Below are positions 4,526 to 54,756 of a stretch of 64,000 bases of DNA, piece after piece. The position numbers and the translations under genes were made by a program. The DNA is from Moniliella sp. 'wahieum' (Eukaryota): contig RSEE01000022.1 of the NCBI GenBank assembly GCA_003971905.1, positions 372,001-436,000 on the forward strand, read 5' to 3'. Each line of letters begins with the position of its first letter. Positions within the stretch are counted from its first letter, which is position 1. The notes beneath the pieces were generated by a model. It was not told the origin of the DNA and made no database searches. It saw only the letters and a list, made by a program, of their open reading frames with translations.

Positions 4526-5936
4526 GAGTGAAGAAGGAAACTGTGCGAAGGAGGGGGTCAGATCCACGCTATTCAACGTTGGGAGGAGTGAGCCGGTGCG
4601 CACGTACAAGCTCCTTTCTGGTGCTTGCGGATAAAAAGGTGGCCAAAAAGTCGAGGCGTAAAGGGGAGGGCGAGATGGAGGGCCAAAGAGCGCTCAGCCC
4701 AGCCGCCTGATGTATATACCTGTGGGGTATTGTCCGGCCGGAGCTTGCCGGCAGTCGGTGGGGGCGCGTGCACTATCCTGGAAGGCCCGTGCACGGGGGG
4801 ACGTGTTGGGCAGGCACAGCGGCTGGGGGCATGGCGGCTGTCGGGGGGTCGATCGGATGATTTTGTGGGGCTGCTATGCAGCGGTGGGGGCGGCAGAAAC
4901 ACACCAGGCAGGAGGCAACACTGCAGACCCACCTGCCTATGTATCTGCGCTTGGCGTGTCGCAGCAGCAGCGCCCAGCAGGAGCCCACTGTCCCTCCCTC
5001 CAGAGACGCTGGCAGGAACGAGTTAGCCGGTTGCCGGTTATGCCGGTTATGACCGACCCAGAGCGATGATCACGCTGCTGGCTGGGAACCAGCAGCTCTC
5101 TTTCTGTCTGTTTGTGGTGGGCTCGCGGGGATTTCGGCAGCGCCTCTCAACGGCTCAACGCCCAACGTTCAACCGCATTTGTTAGCAGACAGGGGCGCGG
5201 CTTTGGGTGTGCAGCGGCGGGCCAGGCGGGGCATGGAAGGCCATGGAATATGGATGGCCAGATGACCACTAGTGATGCAGATGCATGATGGGTGACTGAG
5301 TGACTGGTACTCATTTGACGCGTGACGCTCGGCAAAACGTCGGCGGAACTACCCCCACACCCTCCGCACGAGCCCTATGTCTGAGTTCCCCCGCTGGACT
5401 CTCGCGCCGCACAGCGCCAGTATTCCGGGACTTGGCGTTAGCCTGAGCCGAGAAGCTCGCACTAGCCCACCCATACAGTGGGTGCAGCTGGTGCGCCGAT
5501 GCGCGGATGCGCCGATGGGTCGATTGGCCGATGCCGTAAGGGAATGTCGTATGCATTACTCCACATTCTCCCACTCGTCTTTTTCTAACTCCGTGCGTAG
5601 CCGTGCTCGTGAACCTTCTGCGGCACCTAGTACCTCCTTCCGCGCCCCTGCCCATCGCGCTCATCTGCATCATCAATGATTACCTTCATAAGATAATGCT
5701 TCGTGATACCCGGGACAGGCGCGTGTTTTCTCCTTCACTTCACACCTCACACCCGGGGAACTCTATCGGGCAACACACACAGTTATGCAGTAAACTCATC
5801 CACAGAGGGTGTACGCTGAGCCTCAGCGCTGATGCGCTGATGGCACAGTATTAGTAGAGAGACTTCATTTGGATTTTGAGAATGGAGTGCGATGCATGAT
5901 GCGCCATTTTCACGTGTGTTCTCCAAAGCTGTCGCC

Positions 5937-6117
5937 TGTCATAGTTTGGCTGATCTCGCTCCCATTTCCAATTTCTTCGTCTCGAGCATCTCGCTCCTTC
6001 CCTGTTCCTTCCACTTCGCACCATGTCCTCTGTTCTTGCTTCTTCCCCACGAACGATTGCCACACCCCTTGGCCTAGTCTGATCCTGGTCTCCCTCGCCT
6101 TAGCCCCGACTGTGACA
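5937..6117 (+). repeat. 5' LTR (181 bp)
   Basis: tgtcatag...ctgtgaca; matches 9341-9520 apart from one T in a T-run. Confidence 0.95.
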
Positions 6118-6119
6118 TT

Positions 6120-6128
6120 ATCGTTCGT
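6120..6128 (+). promoter_or_regulatory. Primer-binding site complementary to an internal LTR 9-mer (Tf1-type self-priming)
   Basis: ATCGTTCGT lies 2 nt after the 5' LTR; its reverse complement ACGAACGAT is at 6049-6057; no TGG tRNA-type PBS is present. Confidence 0.75.
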
Positions 6129-6158
6129 CTAACCGTCAACAGGCGAGCCCGACCAGAG

Positions 6159-7460
6159 ATGTCCTCGATCCACGACAACCCCCTGACCCCAGTAACCCTA
6201 GCGCGCCGCAACCCATCGCGCGGCGCGGCCCGATCCGACCCCCGTCCGACCCCCCCTCTGACGCTCCGTTCGACGACGATGGCCCGGAGTGGTTCCACCC
6301 GGCTGGCCCCTCTGGACCCCCCATGCAGCTCCGTCTGTTGCGCCCGCGCCCCGGGGTATACATTGCCTGCCTCCGACCTGTCCGGGCTGGGCCTCGAGGC
6401 CGCTCAGCGCCGGGTCGATGAGGCCCGCAGAATGCGCCAGCTTCTGTTGACGGAGGCCCGGGAAACTCAGGCCTACATTGCAGCCCAGGAGGACCAGCGC
6501 CGCGCTTTCGAGGCTGAGCAAGAGGGAAGCGCCGTGAGCACCGCCTCCGTCAGCGGCGGGAGGAGGCGGCGCTCGCCGCGGAAGAGGCCCGGTTGGCCGC
6601 CTCGGTACGGGAGGCTCAGACTGGCGTGGTGTCCTCGGCCCCCGCCCCCGCTCCCGCCCCTGGGCCTTATGGTGATCTGACCGCCATCCCGAACAAGGCG
6701 TCGGAAGAGCCGAAGATGTTCGAGCCCGCTCGTTTCCACCCGTCGTCTGGTGCGAACCCCACATCTCGTGACCGGGTCCAGGCCCAGCACGTCGTCACCT
6801 CCTTCGAGATTTACGCGCGCGTCGCCCTCACGCATATGGGCGCGGCGGCATGGATTGACCGCTTCATGGGCCTGCTGCAGGGGGAGGCCCTCACTTGGGT
6901 CGAGCAGTTCGGTTCGGAGGTGGCCCTCCCCCTGGAGGCGCGCACCACACCCGCCCTCCAGTCTTGGCCTGCGTTTCGCGCAGCTTTCCTGGAGCAGTGG
7001 GGCGAGCGCAACCCGGCGCTGAAGGCGTTTGAGGAGTTTGGTCGTCTTCGGCAGACGGGATCTGCAGCGGACTATTCCGCTACGTTCACGGTTCTGCTGC
7101 GTCGCTGGAACCCCAACGCGTCGGATGAGGACGCTACTATTGCTTTCTGTACGGCTTGAAGCCGCGGGTGCGTGACGCAATCGCCTCCCGCGGCGAGTCG
7201 GCTCACTTGGGACGGATCAGTTTCGAACAACTGCGCACAGCGGCCATTGACATCGACCAATCGCAATCGCTGGGCGCTCATGGTACCGCAATCTCCCCGG
7301 GATCGGGCGGCAATCATTGGTTTCGGCCCTCGTCGCCCGAAGCGGAGCCCATGGACCTCAGCGCAGTCACCGCCACCGCTGAAGCGGCGGCCCGGCGCAC
7401 CGAGCGCCGCGCTCAAGGTGCAGTGCCGTGATCACCATATGCCTTCCACGACTGTACCCG
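6159..7460 (+). CDS. Retrotransposon Gag (frameshifted across ORFs at 6159, 6593 and 7156)
   Basis: LLQGEALTWVEQ, SWPAFRAAFLEQWG, LRQTGSAADYSATF, LKPRVRDAI and EPMDLS match the Ty3/gypsy capsid (Retrotrans_gag) pattern. Confidence 0.85.
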
Positions 7461-7463
7461 GCC

Positions 7464-7600
7464 ACAGCCCCAACTGCCGCCCAAGCCCCAAGCCCAGCCC
7501 AGCCCCAACTCCCGCCCAAGCCCCAACTCCCGCCCAAGCCCCAAGCCCAGCCCCAGCCCCAAGCCCAGCCCCAGCCCCAAGACCAGCCCAAGACCAAGAC
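7464..7600 (+). repeat. Tandem low-complexity repeat (cccaag/cccagc/cccaactcccgcccaag units; PQAQ/PQLPPK)
   Basis: Repeated 6-nt and 18-nt units read directly between gag and integrase. Confidence 0.85.
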
Positions 7601-7829
7601 TACGCACCAGCACCAGCACTCGCCCGGGCCCCGGCCCAAGTCCACCTCCTCATCTAACCCCATCTCGCCCCCCTCTGTCAACTCGATTCCTTTTCCCTCC
7701 TCGGTTCCCTCCCGGCCCGCTGGCGCGGCACCTCAAGTACTGGCGGAGCCCATGTCCGAACGTTCTGCCGCCGCCCTCAAGCTCATGGCGGCGGACCCCG
7801 ATACACCGGTGGTGGAGCGAGTGTCTGCC

Positions 7830-9330
7830 GACGAGATTCGACAGCGCATCCGCCAACTCGTGCCTCGTGACCCTCGTTGGTCCCTTGCTACGGCTCCAAG
7901 CCCACCTCGCCATGCTTTGACGGTCCGCGACGGTCTTTTGTGGCACGGAAACCAGGTCTACGTCCCGGCGACCGGCCGATCCGCGCTGCCATTCTCCACC
8001 AAGCCCACGACTCGGCATTGGCGGGCCATGAAGGGCGCGACAAGACGTTGGCCCGTGTCCGCGCTCAATATTGGTGGCCCCGCCTGTCAGCCGACGTGTG
8101 GGCCTACGTGCGCTCGTGCGACCGCTGCCAACGGACCAAAGCGCCTTGCCACCAACCCGCCGGACCCCTTCAGCCCCTTTCCCCTCCCCAAGGCCCGTGG
8201 ACCCACTTGACGATGGACCACATTACCCAGCTTCCCCGATCCAATGGTTACGACGCGATTCTGGTGGTGGTGGATCGTTTTACACCAAAATGGGTCACTT
8301 CATTCCCGCCCACACGACGGACACTGCGCCCCAGCTCGCACGCCAGTTTGTACACCATGTCTTTCGCTACCATGGCCTTCCCCGGGATCTGGTGAGTGAT
8401 CGGGGACCGACCTTCACAAGCCACTTCTGGCAAGCCTTGTGTGCCGACTTGGGCATCAAGTCGAGCCTCAGCACCGCGTCCCACCCCCAGACGGACGGCC
8501 AGACTGAGCGCCTCAACCAGATCCTCGAACAGTACCTCCGCTGCTACCTCGACGAGCAGCAGTCCAACTGGTTCGACCTCCTCCCCACGGCCGAATTCGC
8601 CTACAACTCGTCCTCCCACTCAAGCACCCACCAGTCCCCCTTTGTCCTCACCTATGGTTACTCTCCCCGGGGGGAGTTGGAGCCCTCCACTTCGCCCGTG
8701 CCCGCTGCTGCGTCATATCTGGAGGATCTGCGTTCGGCCCAGGCGGTGGCCCACCGCACGCTCGCCGCGGCCCAAGCACGCTACAAGCATTATGCCGACC
8801 AGCAGCGCACCGAGGCGGCTTCCTTCACTGCTGGCCAGCCTGTCTTGGTCCGTCGGGACGGGTATGTGCCCAGCCAGCGGCCTTCTGACGGCCCCGACTC
8901 GCTACCTCGGCCCCTTCCCCATTGTCCGTGCCGTGGGCCGCGCCGCGTACCAGGTCCGCCTCCCCGACTACCTACACCTCCATGACGTGTTCCATGTGTC
9001 CCGCTTGCGAGCCTACACCCTTGGTGACGTGGTCCCTGCCCGCTTGATCGAGCCCCCGCCTCTCTCCCCGAGTATGCTGATGATGGTGCGGTTCATCACG
9101 AGGTCGAACATGTTCTCGACTCTCGCCGCAAGGGTCGTGGAGGCCGCATTGAGTACTTTGTTCACTTCCGGGGCTATCCTGTCCACGAGAGGTGGGTACC
9201 CGCTGCGGACATGTCTCATGACGCCGAGCCAGTGGTCCGTTTCCACGCCCTCTACCCCGATAAGCCTGTCTCCCATGCCCGCCGACTCGCCCTCTCTCGC
9301 CTCCGTCGCCGCCCGGGAGATGAGGTCTGA
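7830..9330 (+). CDS. Ty3/gypsy integrase with HHCC zinc finger, DDE core, GPY/F module and C-terminal chromodomain (frameshifted)
   Basis: AHDSALAGHEG...CDRCQ; LTMDHIT, VSDRGPTF, QTDGQTERLN; YLGPFPIV; HEVEHVLDSRRKGRGGRIEYFVHFRGY...RWVP; stop TGA 9328-9330. Confidence 0.92.
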
Positions 9331-9340
9331 AAGGGGGCAA
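9317..9340 (+). promoter_or_regulatory. Polypurine tract (plus-strand primer)
   Basis: gagatgaggtctgaaagggggcaa immediately precedes the 3' LTR. Confidence 0.75.
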
Positions 9341-9520
9341 TGTCATAGTTGGCTGATCTCGCTCCCATTTCCAATTTCTTCGTCTCGAGCATCTCGCTCC
9401 TTCCCTGTTCCTTCCACTTCGCACCATGTCCTCTGTTCTTGCTTCTTCCCCACGAACGATTGCCACACCCCTTGGCCTAGTCTGATCCTGGTCTCCCTCG
9501 CCTTAGCCCCGACTGTGACA
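9341..9520 (+). repeat. 3' LTR (180 bp)
   Basis: Direct repeat of 5937-6117, followed by TCGCC. Confidence 0.95.
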
Positions 9521-11363
9521 TCGCCGCTGGGGATGACAAGCTAAACATCTGTGACGCTCTGAGGAACAGGAGATATAGTAACTAGCAACTTTTGTAACAA
9601 AAGCCCCATTTCAGCAGGAGGGACGCTAATAGAGCATTGACTAAGTGCCAGTGGTTTCCCCTGGTTCCCCGCTGGCCGCGGAAGACACACAAACTCAAGA
9701 GAAGTTTTGCTGCCGTTGTTTTGCTCATCTCACTTTCAGGTAGATCTACCACTACACTCCTCAGATGCCATTGAATGATACAGCAGCTCTCAGATCTCAC
9801 GCCTCTCCTAAAAAACCTCATCTGTTACTCTATGCGAAGAGGTCTGGCTTCATAAAGACTAGAGACGTTTAGACCATTTCACAAGAAAATATCCTTCTCT
9901 TACCCCCTCCTGCCTTGTCCCACCCTCCTGATAATAAGCCACAGAGAGTCTATATAAATCTTGGAACTGAGGGTTTCACCGAGCGCACAAGTCAGCCCTT
10001 GAATGCGAGATGATCGATGAGGCCGTGGCCTCACCGGCCTCACCTGAGGTCTGTGCCTCAGATCTCAGACCCGGGGGACCGCCTCCTGAGACACGATTGT
10101 ATGATATTTTCTCTGTTCTTCAAGCTTCATTAAAACGTTTAACGTTTAACCATTGTCAATAAGGCCATTCACGCGGAGCACTCTGTGCGCTGATGCGCTG
10201 GTACCTGAGGCCTGATGAGTCAATGAGGCCATGATGTATGAGCATGAGGCCAGTCAGTCTCTATAATCACACGTGTAATAGTTGGTCTCTGACATTTCGT
10301 GCGTCTGCATCGTGGTTATAGTTACGCTGTTTTCGCACAAAGTATCAGACCTTAGATCTAAGATCTTATGAGATCGAGGGCATAAGCGCCACATGAGCCA
10401 AAATTCCTGTTTAGGTAGACCAGCGTGGTGGTTGTTCACTGTTGCCACCGTGACATAAAAATGACCGCGAAATGTGACATGATATGGGGCATGTGGGGGG
10501 ATGTGGTATGTGGCATGAGATGGACCCGCGATACAACTAGGATGATATAGCTATATTGCCAATCCACGCACGCATTTCCTTTTTGTCTACCGCATGTCCT
10601 CCCCCTTCTCAACACCAGCACACCACTTCCTTCCTCCGCTCTCTAGCTCGATTTGATACTTGAAGCAATATCCCGCGCGGGTTGAATTGTACCTCCTGGA
10701 GATTAATCGGCGCGGTTCAAGCACCAGGATTGTATCCTTTTCTCCGTCTCTCTACAAAAAAACGCCCCACACGCGGGTGGTTTTCACCAGATGTCGAACG
10801 AGAGCCGAACGAGAGGGAGGGAGGGCTTCGTCGTCCGGCCGCACCAGCTTCCATCAATATGCAACAGATACGTCCAAAACAAAGTACTAGACCCACAACA
10901 TAATAATGTGTCAGGATGCATCTCAATCATTATAAGGTTCAAGCTGGTCATGGCACATCGACCACAGTATATATAAACGTACACGAGCTGTAACATGTGA
11001 ATACAGTTCTGATGGACCACGGCTTGTTCTTGAATTGTGCTTTTGTGAATGAAGCTGCATGATGGTAGTTGACATGCGACAGACCCAACAGCCCCACCAA
11101 GACCGGATGCGGACGAGGCGATGAAGAACGGGCACGGCAGAGCTGCCGTGGTGGAACAAACTACACCCTCCTCCCTATGGTTGTTGGCTTGGAATAATGA
11201 ATGCCTGGTGATATACTACTGTAATGATATGCAGCCATCAAACAGTCATATACGGAAAACATGTTCATAGTATGATGGCTGGAACAAAAGATTCATCACA
11301 TACGCAACCTATATACATTCTTCGTTTGATCCACTGGACTCGAGCGCCATACTTCCTCTCTTT

Positions 11364-13708
11364 TTAAAAGGGGACAGCAAAGAGAGTGGTAGCCGTCGAG
11401 CTGTTCTCAATCCCAGTCGACGATGCGCTGGCCGAGGAATCGGGAGTCATGCTGCTTTTTGGCGCACCCATTTTTGGCGACGGGGTGGGAGAAGCCAACA
11501 CGACTTTCGACGAGACAGACGCATCCGCCGACGATGAAGCGCTGGACGACGGGGAGAGGAGCGCCAGGGAGCTCGCTGCATCAGCCGTTGAGGAGACGGT
11601 AGGGGTAGGCACCACTGTCGATGAAGGCTCGAGCTGCGACGAAGCAGGCAAGGACTCCGACGACGAAGGGCTGACGCTAGAGCTGGGCTTGGCCGGCTTC
11701 ACGTAGGAAGAAGATGGAGCGGCAGAAGCTTGGTCTGATTCCGACGAGGACTCCGACGACGAAGGGCTGACGCTAGAGCTGGGCTTGGCCGGCTTCACAT
11801 AGGAAGAAGTTGGAGTGGCAGAAGCTTGGTCTGATACCGACGAAGGCACAGAAGTACCCTTATCCGCCTTGCTCTCCGACCACGACTTACTCGCATGGCC
11901 TGACCAATCCGATCCCGCCGACGACGAGGCGACCGAAGAGGAGACGGGCATCCAAGACGAGGCCGATTCCCACCCCGTAGGTGAGGAAGAACTGGCGACC
12001 CAAGAAGACGAGCTGTGCGCACTTGGTACTACGCTAGACGAGGGGTAGTCGGAAGCTTGAACCGAGGACGAGTTAGCAGAGGCGTGGGCGTGTTGCGCCT
12101 CCGACGGCAAAGCCGACGCGGTGGGAAGACTGCTGCTCGCGTCGGAAAGGCTCTGGCTCACACTGGATGCAACCGGGATCGAAGCGTTCACGCTAGGGTA
12201 CACCTGGACGGTAGAGCCGTCGGTCACCGTCACCGTCACGGTAGGACTCGGAGCCGAGTAATGACTGTGCCGGGTTGGCGTGAGCGTGGCAAGGGAAGAT
12301 GAAGCGACGCTAGACGAGTCGGTGAGCGAGTTCCACTTGTAACTTGTCGAAGACGCGGTTGGGGTAGCCGAGCTGGAGGCCGGGGCGGGTTCCCCGCTCG
12401 GGCTGGCAGAAGGCGAGGAGACCGACTGATGGGTAGCCACAGATGCGGACGGTGTGCCCGTCTGGCCTGACGAAGACCCGCTTGAACAGTGAGGAATCCG
12501 AAGAGGCGGTTCTGCTGCGGCCGGGACAAAGGTCAAGTCGAGGAATTTGGTTTGCGACACGGAAAAGCTCTGTGCCTCATGGTTGGTCACCAACCCTCAA
12601 TACTGGTAGAGTTGGGGAGGTTCGAAGCCTGGGAACCAAGCAATTGGTTCTGCTGCCGAGCTCCATCGGTAGCGTTCTTGGCGGGCTTGCCCCAGCTGCC
12701 TGTAGTAACCGAACCGGCGTGCTCCTGGACGAAGAGAGGCAGCAACTGGCCGGAAAGAGGTGAATACTGGAACCGCTGGCTTGACGGTTCTCCCACATAG
12801 CCGGGAGAGTATGTGCAGGGCTCGAGGTGCAGCGGTGCAGGCGGTATCGTGGCGAAAGTGGCACACCAGTTCTGGGCCGTCGCCGTCGCATTCAGCAAGG
12901 GCACAACAACATTGACCGTGATCGTGTCGAGTGCTGTATCCGCCACAGCCGAGCTCGCTCCGCTTGCCGATGACGGCAATCATCTCACCCAGCAATTGCT
13001 GCTCGGTCGCATCCGTAGGGACCAAATACAGGAGCGTGCGCTCGAACTTGCTGGCTTGGAGCGTATAGTTGGTCACAGTGGCATCCAAGAGAGCAAGATC
13101 ATGCGCCTCCTTGGTCGTAATGTTCTGACTCGCCAGGGTAGCATTGGACTGAGCAAGGCTGGTATTGTAGACCGTGTGCAAGACAATGTTTCCGATAATT
13201 TGGTCCTTACTGGGAGTTCCAGCAGGCTGACCACGGGAGGGAGCATCATTGTACGTGTCGTGCGCAACAGTGACATACCCGGGAATTGAGCTTGGACCAG
13301 CCAAAGAGCCATCCCGCTTGCAGTTAGAAGTCTGTACAGGATAGGGGGAAATGGGTCAGTATGTCACGACCGGTAGGATGTAGGCTGAGTGTGGGGCCGA
13401 GTGCGGGAGTGAAGACATACCATGCTCACTTTCGACCTCTTCTGTTGGCGGGAAGAGTTGGGGCGATGGGGCTTGCGGGCAGAGAAGCGCTGCTCACCGG
13501 GGCCACTGGGGCCTTGGGCGCGAGCCCAACCGGGTTGAGCCGCCTTGAAAGGGTGAGCAGGGGCTGCACCGCGGGGTTGAGAGTACTTTCGCTGTTGCAG
13601 GTCGCGGCCGAGGTTGGAGTTGACAGGATAGGCCTCAACGGCGGGGCTGCTGCCAACCAGGGCAAGCAGTCCCGTCAGGGCTGCAAAGGCGGGCGAAAGG
13701 ACGACCAT
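11364..13708 (-). CDS. Secreted protein with a small Cys-containing domain and a long Ser/Thr-rich tail (intron 13332-13420, frameshifts)
   Basis: Signal peptide MVVLSPAFAALTGLLALVGSSPAVEA; in-frame GTATGT...TACAG intron; WCATF...LHLEPC...SQRFQY segment; about 400 aa Ser-rich C-terminus. Confidence 0.7.
11651..11843. repeat. Two-copy 96-bp tandem duplication (32 aa) in the Ser-rich tail
   Basis: aggactccgacgacgaagggctgacgctagagctgggc... begins at both 11651 and 11747. Confidence 0.9.
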
Positions 13709-49891: not shown

Positions 49892-51580
49892 TCAAAGGTA
49901 CTTGTGCCAGCGGGAGCGAAGAACAAAAAGGAGTAAAGTGGCAATCAATGTGGTGACGGCCGCCACCGAGAAGGAGAGAGAGCAAGCGCGGCCAGCGCGG
50001 CAGATGGCCGGCGGTGAGCCTTCCTCGAACACATCCAAATATCCCAGGGGAAGAGGCCGCTTGGCAACCGCATCGGAAACCGTGGCGTACAGCATGGGGA
50101 ACCCAAATGACCCTAAAGCACTAGCGTAAGAGAGTAGCCCCCATGAGCGGCCAAATGTCGACAGGCCAAACGCTGATGCAACGATCGAAGGCACCAGCGT
50201 GAACGTGGATCCGTAAAGGAACCCGACCGCAGCTGCCAGACAAAGCAGGCCATGAAGCGTGCTCAGTCCCACAGCGGCAAAGGTAAACATGAGGGTAAGG
50301 CTGCCTGTAGCCGCGACCAGGAGCGTTACCCGAGAAATCCTGACGCGCAAGAGAGCGTACTTGATCCGAGCGAGTGTGCCCTGGGGAACCTCTCGCTCCT
50401 CCACTGCCCGTGCAGGGCTCACGGCATCGGCTACCACACCGGCCAACAGACGGGATGCTGTGTTGGTCATGGCAAGAAGAGAGATGACGCGAGAGCGCCA
50501 GCGAAGCTCGTCGCGTGCCACCCCGGGCACGTCCGCCAAATCGCCCAGGTTGGTCTTGTGGGGGTAAAGGGCAGCGACCATGGACCCCACATTTGACATG
50601 ACCATCTCTCCAGCACCCACTGCTGTAACGAGGATGAGGGCCAAAATCCAAACCGAGGGAGAGAAGATAAAGTCACGCAGACTCTCCGAACGTGGTGTGA
50701 GCATTGACGTGCTAGACCGCACACTCCATCCACTTGCCCCTGCCGGATCGAGCATGGAGCTCTCCGGGTCAGAAATCGGGTTGTTCCCTGGATTCGAAAT
50801 GGAAGAGACAAGAGGCGTCCGTTCGTTCGCCTCGTCGCCTTGCGCAGCAATCCGGGCCTGTTCAGCGGCAGCCCGAGCCCGAGCCTGATATTGCTCGTGC
50901 CGCACCCCTTGCCCATGCGCTTGCTTGGTCTCCTGCTCATCCACCTTTGGAGCCGAGAGCATGCCCCAAGCAGCAATCACGTTGGATCCGCCCAATACCA
51001 CAGCAAGGAAGGTAAGGAAGCGGGTGGTGTCCAGGTCACCGGTGTTGGCGTCGACAAAGAACCGCTCGCCGACGGCAGTGAGGAACATGGAGCTCAAACT
51101 GAAGAGCGTAAGAGGAAGAGCAATTGCCAGACCAGGCTGTTGAGGCCAGACTCGCGTAGCCGCAGTCATAGATCCAAAATACGCCGCTCCCACACCGGCA
51201 CCAACAAGAGCAAAACACATGCCGAGGTAGATTGTCGGCCCCAACCCCAGTGGCGCTCGAACCACCGACGCACCGATGCCATCTCCGCCCTGAGCCGGTG
51301 CACGTTGTGCCATCAGGCTGTACCCCAGGCCAAAAAGCACACTGGCGCCGACGCTTAGTGGAGCAGGACCAAATTGGTCGGCAACAGCGCCCCAACCAGC
51401 TGCGCTCAGATATTCGCCTAGCACGGTGGCGGACCAGAGGATGTTAGTCTGCTTGAGGTCCAGTGCAAAGTCCGCCATGAGCGAAGGGCCGATGAGGGGG
51501 AAGCAAAACAAGCTACCCGCTGTCAACGCATTGATCGCGACGCTGGCAATGACCAGCGCTCGACGGGGTTGGGTCAACAT
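49892..51580 (-). CDS. MCH1: MFS transporter, MCH1/nodulin-like
   Basis: Uninterrupted ORF with about 12 hydrophobic segments; AGSLFCFPL, WGAVADQFGP, GLAIALPLTLFSLSS, GAGEMVMSNVGSMV, SRLLAGVVAD, FGLSTFGRSWG. Confidence 0.85.
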   Translation of the reverse strand: MLTQPRRALVIASVAINALTAGSLFCFPLIGPSLMADFALDLKQTNILWSATVLGEYLSAAGWGAVADQFGPAPLSVGASVLFGLGYSLMAQRAPAQGGDGIGASVVRAPLGLGPTIYLGMCFALVGAGVGAAYFGSMTAATRVWPQQPGLAIALPLTLFSLSSMFLTAVGERFFVDANTGDLDTTRFLTFLAVVLGGSNVIAAWGMLSAPKVDEQETKQAHGQGVRHEQYQARARAAAEQARIAAQGDEANERTPLVSSISNPGNNPISDPESSMLDPAGASGWSVRSSTSMLTPRSESLRDFIFSPSVWILALILVTAVGAGEMVMSNVGSMVAALYPHKTNLGDLADVPGVARDELRWRSRVISLLAMTNTASRLLAGVVADAVSPARAVEEREVPQGTLARIKYALLRVRISRVTLLVAATGSLTLMFTFAAVGLSTLHGLLCLAAAVGFLYGSTFTLVPSIVASAFGLSTFGRSWGLLSYASALGSFGFPMLYATVSDAVAKRPLPLGYLDVFEEGSPPAICRAGRACSLSFSVAAVTTLIATLLLFVLRSRWHKYL

Positions 51581-54574
51581 GGTGTGTTGGCCGGGGGATG
51601 CAAGTTGGAAGTGCCGAGAGGGCTGCAATATGTGTGTAGGTCACGCCGCTGGCCGTGGGTGCGGGTGGAGCACGTGGTGGTGGTGAGGACGATGGGAGAT
51701 TGAGAGGGAGAGGGCAGCGGTTGTTGCTCGCTGGGCGCACCACCTGGGCGGAGGGTCTGGGGGAGTGGACAGGGGGCTGATTAGGATACTGTGCTGCATG
51801 CTATACAGGGGCATTGTGGTTACCGGCGGCTACCGGTGGGATCTGAGACCAATCAACGTTGCCCGGATCTTCTTCCGCTATCTAAGATCTAAGATCTAAT
51901 CGCAGCCACACAGGCAGACCGACGTCACACTGGCGCCATGCGGTACACGTGACCATTCCTTGATTCCCTCCTCGTGGCAAACTGGGTTCCATCTGGGATC
52001 TCACATGCGCATGATCGATGTCGATGGCATCCCAGCCACGCTCGAATCGGGAGAAGAGTGCCCCCCAGTGCGGCGCTCAGGCCCTCCGGTTGAGCCGTGT
52101 CGTGTCATCATGTCATCGATCTCATCGATCATCCATCATGCGTCTGCTTCAGGACCTCGTGCTCACGCGCTCACGCCTCCACGCGGCCCGGATGTGCGTC
52201 CTCTGCTGAGGTAACCCGATAACGTGTAAGTAACGCGCAACGCGTATAACGCGTAGCCGCCGCCTGACTGGCCGATGCGGCAAAGCAATAGCAATCACTG
52301 CACCACTCCCGCCATCGCCGCTCCACGCCCCTCTGTTCTCCACAACATCAGTCATCGACGTCATCAATCATATTGGGCCGAATGGCAATGACCCGGACAG
52401 CATATCTGCCCACACGCTCCACATCATATAGAGAGAGAGGTGCTTTCACCTTTATAAACAGCGCTGTGTTGTCCTTCAGCTGTGTTTCGTCTCACACGAC
52501 CTTAATGCTCGCTTGAAGTATGAGAGCAAATCAATCACGGGGGCCGTGTTCAGGCAAAGCAGGTTCATCATCCTCATCGGCCTCATTCATCATCACATTG
52601 CCAGGTTATCCCGCGGTTACTATATAGCTTTCCTGCCCATTCTGGCTTTGAGTGAGAGGCTTGTGCTATAGTGACCGTGGGGCAGATCAATGGAGAGAGC
52701 TCTGCTAAAATACTAGGATCTGAAGCCTGATGGGGAAAGCAAAAGGAGACGGACCTTTTGGCTAAAAACGCACGAGAGGAAAGCACGTGAAACGGGCCGT
52801 ATATGTTGGGGCCTAATACTGAAAGCGATGGGGAAAGTTGCGGTGGTAATGGGGTGATGGGTTCTTTCCATTGCTGGGGTGCATTTCTCTCTCCCAAGCG
52901 GGGAGACCGAGGGGCAGGGACTGAGGTGACAAGGGGAAAATGTCGAAATGATCAAGGCTCGTCTCCACAACGGTGCACAGTACCAGTAGCAAAGTCCACA
53001 GACGCTCAACAAACCCACCGTGTTTACAAGTACTCGAGGCCACCGCTTGCAACCAGTGTCTCGTCCAGCTACGTAATTGAGCCCCACGAAAAAGGCTTAC
53101 AGTCCACGGCTCTGACCCCGGGTGGCAAGCGCTGCCAGTCTTGGGCTAGGTTTTGACTGTGGTCAGATGTTTGGCGTTGGCACGCAATCGGGGTAGAGGG
53201 CTGTTATTACGGTTCGCATATCGGTATTAGGGAACATATACTCTTGGTACGTGGCAGTACGAGAGTCGAGACGTTCAACTCTCGATAATCTCCTTGTATA
53301 TGACAGAGAAAAGAGGAACACAAGCTGCTAGTAACCCCAATTCACCATCGTATAGCTTTCGAGTAGAGCCGAAGTACTACCCTTTCGGGAAGTGGCATTT
53401 TTTCAAGCCAACACTCCCTCTGACAGGAGCCAAAAGAGATAACAGCATAAAACGATCAGAAAAGTCTCAAGCATTGACCTCCCACGTCGTCTCATCGGGG
53501 CCCGTCGAGACTCCATACATATGAAATGCGTTCAGACCGGCTGTTCTAGCCGGGTTCTACCCTTCGTATAATGACACTGCCGGATTGAAAACGGCATTCT
53601 ATAGTCAGCAACGCCGAAAAATATGCCACTTTCCATGTGGGCAAAGTGCGACCAAACAAATCTATACTGACGCTGGGGTTTTTGCTGGGCCATGCCGCGC
53701 TAGCGTTCTACTGTTTTGGTTTGTATTATGAACTTCACATCACAGCAACGCTAGGATGAGCGAATGATATGTCAAAACGGGATTCTTTGCCATGCGGAAA
53801 CGAGCGATGAAAAGGCATCAAGTGCAAAAGCGGAGGAGACGGCGCGATTGGTTAACCTCTTCCCCCCGCACTTCCTGGACAAAGACCATTTGTCTAAGCG
53901 AAGGAAGGGAGCAGATATAAAGAGCTAGTAACGGTGGTGTCGGTAGAGTAATACCCATGCTGTGGTACCGTGGATTGACGGGAAAGTATCGAATCCATGT
54001 AGTTAGCACGGGGCGACTATTACAAGTCGCTTTGTATAGCCCCCTCCACTCCCTTATGGTCGCTCTCGCTCCTCGGTTTCTCTTCCTATCACTACTCAAC
54101 TCTATGTTGACCCGGATTTTCGGCCTATCTACAAAACCCACACAATAATCGTCATTTCTTCTCCCCTCGCGGTCGTCTAAAATCCAAAACACTACACATG
54201 TGGTTTCGACCCAGTTTCTCGCCTTGTTTCTCGTCTCGGGTTCGCTTCATCCTTGACCCTCGCCTCGTCTCTTACCTTGTACCTCTTGTGCTTGGTCCTC
54301 ACTTCTTCCTTGGCTCATTTCCCCTTTTCACTGTAATAGACCAGTTAGTCTTTCCTTTGCCCCCCCCCTTTCATCTTCTCTAAAGCCTCTCTGTCTGTTC
54401 TTATATAGGGACTTTGGATCTGAAACGCGTTCAGTCCTCCGTGAGTCTTGTCTCCAATGGGTAGGGAAGGTCTCCGTCTGGGGATCCAGCAACCCCGTTA
54501 CACTCCTTTCTTTTCCTCCATTTCTCGCGTTTCCTGACACGCAACGGTTGAAACAGTTGTTGCCTTCACCTCTC

Positions 54575-54756
54575 TTTCAAACTTTGGCTAATCTCGCTCC
54601 CATTTTCAATTTCTTCGTCCCTACCGTCTCGCTCCTTCCCTGCTCTTTCGCTTCGCACCATGCCCTCTGCTCTTGCTTCCTCCCCACGAACGATTGCTAT
54701 ATCCCTTTGCCTAGTCTCGACTCTGGTCTCCCTCGCATTTTACCCCGATTATGACA
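54575..54756 (+). mobile_element. Diverged solo LTR of the family at 5937-9520
   Basis: Aligns end to end with the LTR (about 84% identity by manual alignment); ends in TGACA; flanks CTCTC/CACTC form a 4-of-5 degenerate TSD. Confidence 0.88.

What the first reader, a model, noticed from the sequence alone, without database searches (positions are those of the whole stretch)
5937..9520. Recently inserted RT-less chromovirus: Gag followed directly by integrase
Seen: a 3584-bp element with LTRs identical except for one T-run indel, a perfect TCGCC TSD, a PBS and a PPT. After gag come only about 400 bp of repeat and linker, then an integrase retaining HHCC, DDE, GPY/F and a chromodomain. No D[ST]G protease, YxDD reverse transcriptase or RNase H motif is present, and there is no room for them. 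Established: Ty3/gypsy pol order is PR-RT-RH-IN, and commonly described non-autonomous LTR elements retain no ORF or only gag. Inference: a parasitic element that keeps its own capsid and targeting integrase while borrowing PR/RT/RH from a helper. It could instead be a one-off internal deletion.
Basis: partly seen in the sequence, partly recalled or inferred. Interest (0 to 1): 0.8.

Follow-up and report, generated by a model that had tools for sequence, protein, structure and literature searches.

The report
Helper-dependent fungal retrotransposon family
A fungal jumping gene that has lost its copying enzymes has still spread to twelve sites by borrowing them from full-length relatives in the same genome, and the integrase gene it keeps is probably a leftover rather than a working part.

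Summary
The element is real and not a one-off. The genome holds 12 copies (3.58-3.75 kb) at different target sites. All share the same two deletions relative to 10 long relatives with the same LTR, PBS and PPT. Deletion 1 (~504 nt) removes the Gag zinc knuckle and protease; deletion 2 (~1.7 kb) removes RT and RNase H. The 12 form one clade at the junctions, but 8 carry tracts of one helper subfamily, which fits co-packaging with the helper. So 'non-autonomous family with a helper' holds. 'Keeps its own working integrase' is doubtful. Gag and integrase are not one ORF: gag stops 4 codons past junction 1 in 12 of 12, integrase lies in the +1 frame, and the parent's likely shift site was deleted. 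Integrase changes private to the short family are near neutral (N:S 20:9; helpers 7:23; p=0.0006). Against this, catalytic residues are intact and the core has fewer changes. The 'PBS' is a Tf1/sushi self-priming site. Partial precedents: mouse IAP 1Δ1, sugar-beet TRIM-62. This scan noted the family before, on two other copies in this genome.

The parts
5932..5936 (+). left target-site duplication TCGCC
5937..6117 (+). 5' LTR, TG..CA, 181 nt; about 98% identical to helper LTRs
6049..6057 (+). [quoted passage not shown]
   Evidence: 0 of 2000 shuffles; same pair in sister family B; transcription start inferred, not mapped
6120..6128 (+). primer-binding site of self-priming (Tf1/sushi) type, no TGG
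6159..7431 (+). gag, capsid part kept, zinc knuckle lost; stops 4 codons after junction 1; 5 small private indels in this copy
7415..7421 (+). junction 1: 7-nt microhomology; ~504 nt (CCHC, gag stop region, protease) missing
7422..7713 (+). parent's PR-RT linker with Pro/Gln repeat of 18-nt period (7458-7617); ATG in the IN frame at 7439
7710..7719 (+). junction 2: imperfect 9-10-nt microhomology; ~1.7 kb (RT, RNase H) missing; codon phase kept
7714..9330 (+). complete integrase (HHCC, DDE, GPY/F-SH3, chromodomain), +1 frame relative to gag; 5 small private indels in this copy
9329..9337 (+). polypurine tract
9341..9520 (+). 3' LTR, 180 nt
9521..9525 (+). right target-site duplication TCGCC

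Best explanation
A young non-autonomous family of a Tf1/sushi-type chromovirus in a smut-like basidiomycete. One ancestor lost CCHC+PR and RT+RH by two microhomology deletions (shown: one origin; inferred: RT template switching). Its RNA keeps all cis signals (LTR, self-primer/PBS, PPT), enters particles made by the full-length helpers, and is copied and integrated by helper enzymes (shown: spread and sequence exchange with a helper subfamily; inferred: co-packaging). It may still make a knuckle-less Gag (weak evidence). The integrase gene is carried along as a whole but probably untranslated relic under relaxed selection, because the parent's gag-to-pol recoding site most likely lay in deletion 1 (inferred).
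For: 12 copies, 12 different flanks, perfect 5-bp TSD in 10 of 12, LTR pairs with 0 substitutions in 10 and 1 in 2. Identical junctions in 12 of 12, no single-deletion copy. Short copies are one clade on the junction flanks (SH-aLRT 100) but not in gag codons 120-300 (AU p=0.001) or IN codons 315-538 (p=0.028), where the 8 S1 copies group with helper subfamily B; a 33-nt gag duplication is shared by 4 S1 and 3 B copies. Helper pol is +1 to gag, with the stop context conserved in 3 families and lying inside deletion 1. IN N:S is 20:9 in short-private changes and 7:23 among helpers, Fisher p=0.0006; neutrality not rejected for short, p 0.32-0.49. R144C, F188C (9 of 12) and Y254S put in residues found in 0-2% of 88-89 homologs. 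Gag short-private N:S 16:13, omega 0.45-0.53, p 0.03-0.06 against neutral.
Against: None of 38 IN columns conserved in >=90% of homologs has a shared change (chance of this 0.21). No shared stop or frameshift in IN (chance of no stop 0.38; indels not modelled). Only 4 of 21 missense changes fall in the zinc finger plus core, p=0.023. The changes looked milder than random (P=0.0014), which fell to P=0.08-0.12 once query bias was removed. Both deletions keep codon phase (1 in 9 by chance), and the +1 frame is open ~118 codons upstream of the helper gag stop, so a shift site upstream of junction 1 is not excluded. Short gag versus short IN is not significant (p=0.42), so 'Gag kept, IN relaxed' is not shown as a contrast. 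Changes were not polarised in the count, and some are shared with older relatives. Ectopic gene conversion could also make the mosaics.
Confidence: 0.6

Rival explanations
1. One reading: the short RNA makes Gag plus a low level of integrase-chromodomain, by a +1 shift in the retained overlap or at the new CCG-UGA stop, or by re-initiation at the ATG 7 nt after the stop. The protein helps its own RNA in cis, as the IAP 1Δ1 fusion does, and helper PR/RT do the rest.
For: Both junctions keep phase and fall at domain borders. All HHCC/DDE residues are kept. The core is depleted of missense changes, p=0.023. S1 regained helper sequence for the IN C-terminus and chromodomain. A cis-acting fusion is described for IAP 1Δ1 (PMC6466679, passage).
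Against: omega 0.77-0.92 against 0.11-0.13. The four core changes are as bad as random ones. The conserved stop context is deleted. The ATG after the stop is absent in at least L042.
Confidence: 0.2
2. Pure cis parasite: neither Gag nor IN matters, and both ORFs survive only because the family is young (2-3% from its helpers).
For: Short-to-helper distance is 0.024-0.035 per site. Gag constraint is marginal (p 0.03-0.06) and Gag lacks its RNA-binding knuckle.
Against: Gag omega about 0.5, not different from helpers (p=0.56); no frameshift shared by most copies in 416 gag codons.
Confidence: 0.18
3. One-off deletion or assembly collapse.
For: The assembly has many small indel errors; no contig of run X1 was listed as joining across either deletion.
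Against: 12 loci on 11 contigs with their own flanks and linked private SNPs; a contig of public run X1 carries 5 alleles found in 11-12 of 12 short and 0 of 10 long copies.
Confidence: 0.02

Closest known systems
Mouse IAP 1Δ1 (PMC6466679 and PMC7411935, passages)
   Same: Amplified non-autonomous subtype with one shared internal deletion in gag-pol, living beside full-length helpers and needing their proteins in trans.
   Different: 1Δ1 has one 1.9-kb deletion that makes an in-frame gag-pol fusion acting in cis. Here there are two deletions, all of PR/RT/RH is gone, and gag and IN are out of frame; no function is shown.
Sugar-beet TRIM-62 and TRIM-66 (PMC13570524, passages and supplement rows)
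   Same: Non-autonomous chromovirus families of about 3.7-4 kb (43 and 3 copies) with a named autonomous partner, keeping GAG and INT sequence; no RT listed in their summary rows.
   Different: They keep PROT, and the TRIM-62 copy rows seen list only part of INT; they are tRNA-Met primed plant CRM elements. Here PR and the knuckle are lost and IN-chromodomain is complete.
TR-GAG elements and wheat RLG_Quinta/RLG_Sabrina (PMC11302176, abstract and passages)
   Same: Gag-bearing non-autonomous partner sharing LTR ends, PBS and PPT with its helper.
   Different: They lack INT. Quinta is 28-35 million years old with a diverged Gag; this family is 2-3% from its helper and its Gag has no zinc knuckle.
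Tf1/sushi chromoviruses (bioRxiv 10.1101/2022.12.06.519325, passages)
   Same: Ty3/gypsy order, chromodomain integrase, self-priming PBS; nearest solved structure is Ty3 IN (E 6e-62).
   Different: The short family has no RT. The helper has pol in the +1 frame, whereas that paper says non-fission-yeast Tf1/sushi elements mostly use -1 shifts.

Membership tests
Non-autonomous LTR retrotransposon family with autonomous partner | several independent insertions of the same defective structure, with TSDs | tested here: met
   12 loci, 10 of 12 perfect 5-bp TSD
Non-autonomous LTR retrotransposon family with autonomous partner | partner with same LTR ends, PBS, PPT and a full enzyme set | tested here: met
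   10 long copies, 7 unrearranged; domains
Non-autonomous LTR retrotransposon family with autonomous partner | mobilisation in trans shown directly | not testable with these tools
   only indirect: mosaic with helper subfamily B
Tf1/sushi chromovirus | gag-PR-RT-RH-IN order (in the parent) | tested here: met
Tf1/sushi chromovirus | chromodomain at IN C-terminus | tested here: met
   PF00385 above cut-off
Tf1/sushi chromovirus | self-priming PBS complementary to R | tested here: met
   transcript start not mapped
Tf1/sushi chromovirus | placement in the clade by RT-IN tree with named references | not tested
   no named reference set was aligned
TR-GAG | gag (with or without PR) retained, enzymes absent | tested here: not met
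   complete IN is present; it may still work like one if IN is silent
IAP 1Δ1-like cis-acting fusion element | deletion creates an in-frame gag-pol fusion ORF | tested here: not met
   gag stop 4 codons after junction 1 in 12 of 12
IAP 1Δ1-like cis-acting fusion element | retained pol part translated and needed in cis | tested here: inconclusive
   selection tests mixed, leaning relaxed

The most novel reading that the evidence does not exclude
A semi-autonomous fungal chromovirus that supplies its own knuckle-less capsid and its own chromodomain integrase through a new recoding or re-initiation site, and borrows only PR, RT and RH, refreshing its integrase C-terminus by recombination with the helper.
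Probability: 0.2. Interest if true: 0.7.

Novelty: new variant of a known kind. Interest (0 to 1): 0.42.

Why it matters
It is a clean snapshot of a parasite-of-a-parasite forming. The exact deletions, both helper subfamilies and the recombination tracts sit in one genome, and the defective form (12 copies) matches its helpers (10) in number. It allows a direct test of whether retained coding domains in non-autonomous elements work in cis or are just decaying; here integrase leans to decay. I found no fungal case of this layout in 9 paper searches, but the library lacks most subscription papers. The helper's conserved +1 gag-pol phase may be a recoding signal worth its own study.

Tried and rejected
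Splicing as the gag-pol joining mechanism: a 58-nt GT..AG stretch over the knuckle would join the frames in family A, but no such donor exists in 6 of 6 family-B copies, and L049/L053 lack that donor; rejected. Deletion 1 as a spliced-out intron: it can be written GT..AG, but 7-nt microhomology explains it, and deletion 2 has no such ends; not favoured, not excluded. Shared gag frameshift near codon 54: run length 7 in 9 of 12 short copies, so an error pattern. 'Short IN changes are milder than random': largely an artefact of using a short copy as query. C174 copy as a single-deletion intermediate: it has a different deletion and is decayed. No RNA holder listed. Run X1 lists no joint at either junction, 18 pieces were not shown, and X2 laid nothing; contig depth was not used as copy number. 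Protein search: 0 of 89 hits combine a gag and an integrase Pfam without RT; 11 lack RT and none of these has gag (only 8000 candidates of 558-1777 aa scored). No related genomes are held for this organism, so other strains were not examined. No fold or complex prediction was run.

Full report
1. Observation. The window shows a 3584-nt LTR element at 5937-9520, LTRs of 181 and 180 nt differing by one T, TCGCC on both sides, and a purine tract before the 3' LTR. Of 10 frames scanned, Pfam found gag, Integrase_H2C2, rve, SH3_Tf2-1 and Chromo, and no PR, RT or RH. The host is a fungus: a neighbouring transporter is 46% identical to one of Tilletiaria anomala. The genome is 69.5 Mb in 223 contigs.

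2. It is a family with a helper. A genome search gave short and long relatives. Twelve short copies (L001-L010, L042, L043; 3584-3751 nt) have 12 different flanks, a perfect 5-bp TSD in 10 (L009 and L010 imperfect), and LTR pairs with 0 substitutions in 10 and 1 in 2. Ten long copies (L031-L040) share LTR and PPT; 7 are unrearranged at about 5.77 kb, and L031, L039 and L040 have altered ends. A long copy carries CCHC, protease, RT and RNase H. Junction probes found exactly 12 loci spanning junction 1 (33 of 33 candidates scored) and the same 12 spanning junction 2 (36 of 36); none has one deletion only. LTR counts are lower bounds (40 of 444 candidates scored). The trees and counts use these 22 copies; older, truncated and family-B copies served only as outgroups.

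3. Anatomy. Deletion 1 is 504 nt in 4 of 10 long copies (range 499-506), lies at a 7-nt repeat, and removes the knuckle, the gag stop region and PR. Deletion 2 is 1707 nt by modal 60-nt steps (single copies 1691-1706), lies at an imperfect 9-10-nt repeat, and removes RT and RH, ending a few codons after the RH C-terminal motif. Both keep codon phase. The repeat between them is the parent's PR-RT linker. The PBS has no TGG; its 9-nt complement lies at LTR nt 113 (0 of 2000 shuffles; 1-2 of 2000 in two family-B copies; not significant in L068), and the region folds into a long hairpin. This matches the self-priming described for Tf1/sushi chromoviruses (bioRxiv 10.1101/2022.12.06.519325, passages).

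4. Origin and exchange. There are two short subgroups (S1, 8 copies; S2, 4 including the window copy) and two long ones (A, 6; B, 4). On the junction flanks all 12 short copies are one side of a branch (SH-aLRT 100), so the double deletion arose once. In gag codons 120-300 and IN codons 315-538 that grouping is rejected (AU p=0.0012 and 0.028), with S1 nested among B. A 33-nt gag duplication is shared by 4 S1 and 3 B copies. Recombination during reverse transcription between defective and autonomous members is described (PMC6894440, passages). Co-packaging is my inference; gene conversion is not excluded.

5. Is integrase made? In the helpers pol is +1 to gag: the protease motif is 205 nt from the knuckle in 3 of 3 family-A copies that gave a motif call and 214 nt in 6 of 6 family-B copies. 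Contigs of run X1 cover this stretch without a frame-changing gap. The gag stop context is the same in A and B and similar in L071, and lies inside deletion 1; the true shift site is not known, and the +1 frame is open about 118 codons upstream. In the short copies gag stops 4 codons past junction 1 in 12 of 12, with an IN-frame ATG 7 nt later in most. So gag-IN is not one ORF. The 1015-aa frame in L042 joins them only through a private indel. Indels in both genes are mostly 1-2 nt and deletion-biased, and none that shifts the frame is shared by most copies.

6. Selection. Alleles in at least 2 short and no long copy give IN N:S 20:9 (omega 0.77-0.92; neutrality p 0.32-0.49), against 7:23 among helpers (0.11-0.13); Fisher p=0.0006. 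For gag the figures are 16:13 (0.45-0.53; p 0.03-0.06) against 8:11; p=0.56. Short gag versus short IN gives p=0.42. These counts are unpolarised, and several alleles also occur in older relatives. Against 89 homologs, R144C, F188C and Y254S (L042 numbering) are rare residues, though Ty3 has Asn at 254 and foamy virus Pro at 150. Results against decay: all 38 highly conserved columns are kept (chance 0.21); missense changes are sparse in the core (4 of 21, p=0.023); there is no shared stop (chance 0.38). A mildness test gave P=0.0014 but 0.08-0.12 after removing query bias, and 0.75-0.77 for the four core changes. I read this as relaxed, probably absent, selection on IN, with real doubt.

7. 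Outside support. One public DNA run (X1, food metagenome contigs, 0.39 of words) holds the family. One contig carries 5 alleles seen in 11-12 of 12 short and 0 of 10 long copies. It lists no joint at the junctions, and its independence from the assembly is not established.

8. Mechanism. Shown: structure, copy number, single origin, exchange with helper B, frame layout. Inferred: template-switch deletions; transcription from the LTR; self-priming; packaging in helper particles; helper RT and IN doing the work; possible contribution of a knuckle-less Gag. Odds: IN relic 0.6, IN used in cis 0.2, both ORFs idle 0.18, artefact 0.02.

9. Comparison and novelty. Non-autonomous families keeping coding remnants are well known. 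The sugar-beet survey lists 15 of 115 families with some pol domain (PMC13570524, passages), including TRIM-62 and TRIM-66 with GAG, PROT and INT (supplement rows; 32 of 113 'INT' places seen). Quinta keeps Gag only (PMC11302176, abstract and passages). IAP 1Δ1 has a cis-acting fusion (PMC6466679, PMC7411935, passages). PMC13469084 and PMC2864245 (passages) added nothing decisive. Nine searches showed no fungal gag-plus-complete-IN family; bioRxiv supplements are closed and subscription papers are missing. Two earlier scan notes describe elements of 3664 and 3751 nt in this genome, the lengths of L009 and L043, as defective copies. I agree on helper dependence; the copy count shows a spreading family, not single accidents. 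Verdict: new variant of a known kind, interest 0.42.

Noticed in passing
L033, L032, L039, L059-L064, L071 (gag-pol junction): Pol lies in the +1 frame of gag in families A and B, and gag ends in xCT GTC followed by TGA or TAG in three families; there is no Met before the protease motif, so a +1 recoding event is likely. Tf1/sushi elements are reported to use mostly -1 shifts.
   Followed up: partly
L039, L040, L044, L062 (5' ends): Four copies have a 5' LTR that stops near nt 103-109, just before the self-primer, and is joined to internal sequence; L039 and L040 still have perfect TSDs. This suggests a recurrent aberrant strand transfer at the U3/R border.
   Followed up: partly
L084:4157-4369, L086:507-810: LTR plus 11 nt of PBS followed by an inverted LTR piece, at two loci; 11 of the 13 other LTR hits examined were solo LTRs.
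   Followed up: no
L031:343-525: Long copy whose 3' end is replaced by an inverted LTR.
   Followed up: no
window 7458-7617 and homologous linkers: The Pro/Gln linker is 304-471 nt in short copies and 283-316 nt in long ones: the repeat has expanded in the short family.
   Followed up: partly
L059-L064: Sister family B (76% in RT) with the same PBS; five near-full-length copies and one differently deleted copy (L062). No search for a short derivative family of B was run.
   Followed up: partly
window 54577-54756: Older single LTR of this family, about 85% identical.
   Followed up: no
window 49892-51640: MFS transporter gene; best named hit Tilletiaria anomala at 46%, the basis for calling the host smut-like.
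   Followed up: partly
window 11651-11843: 97-nt tandem duplication (96% identical) inside a Ser-rich ORF.
   Followed up: no
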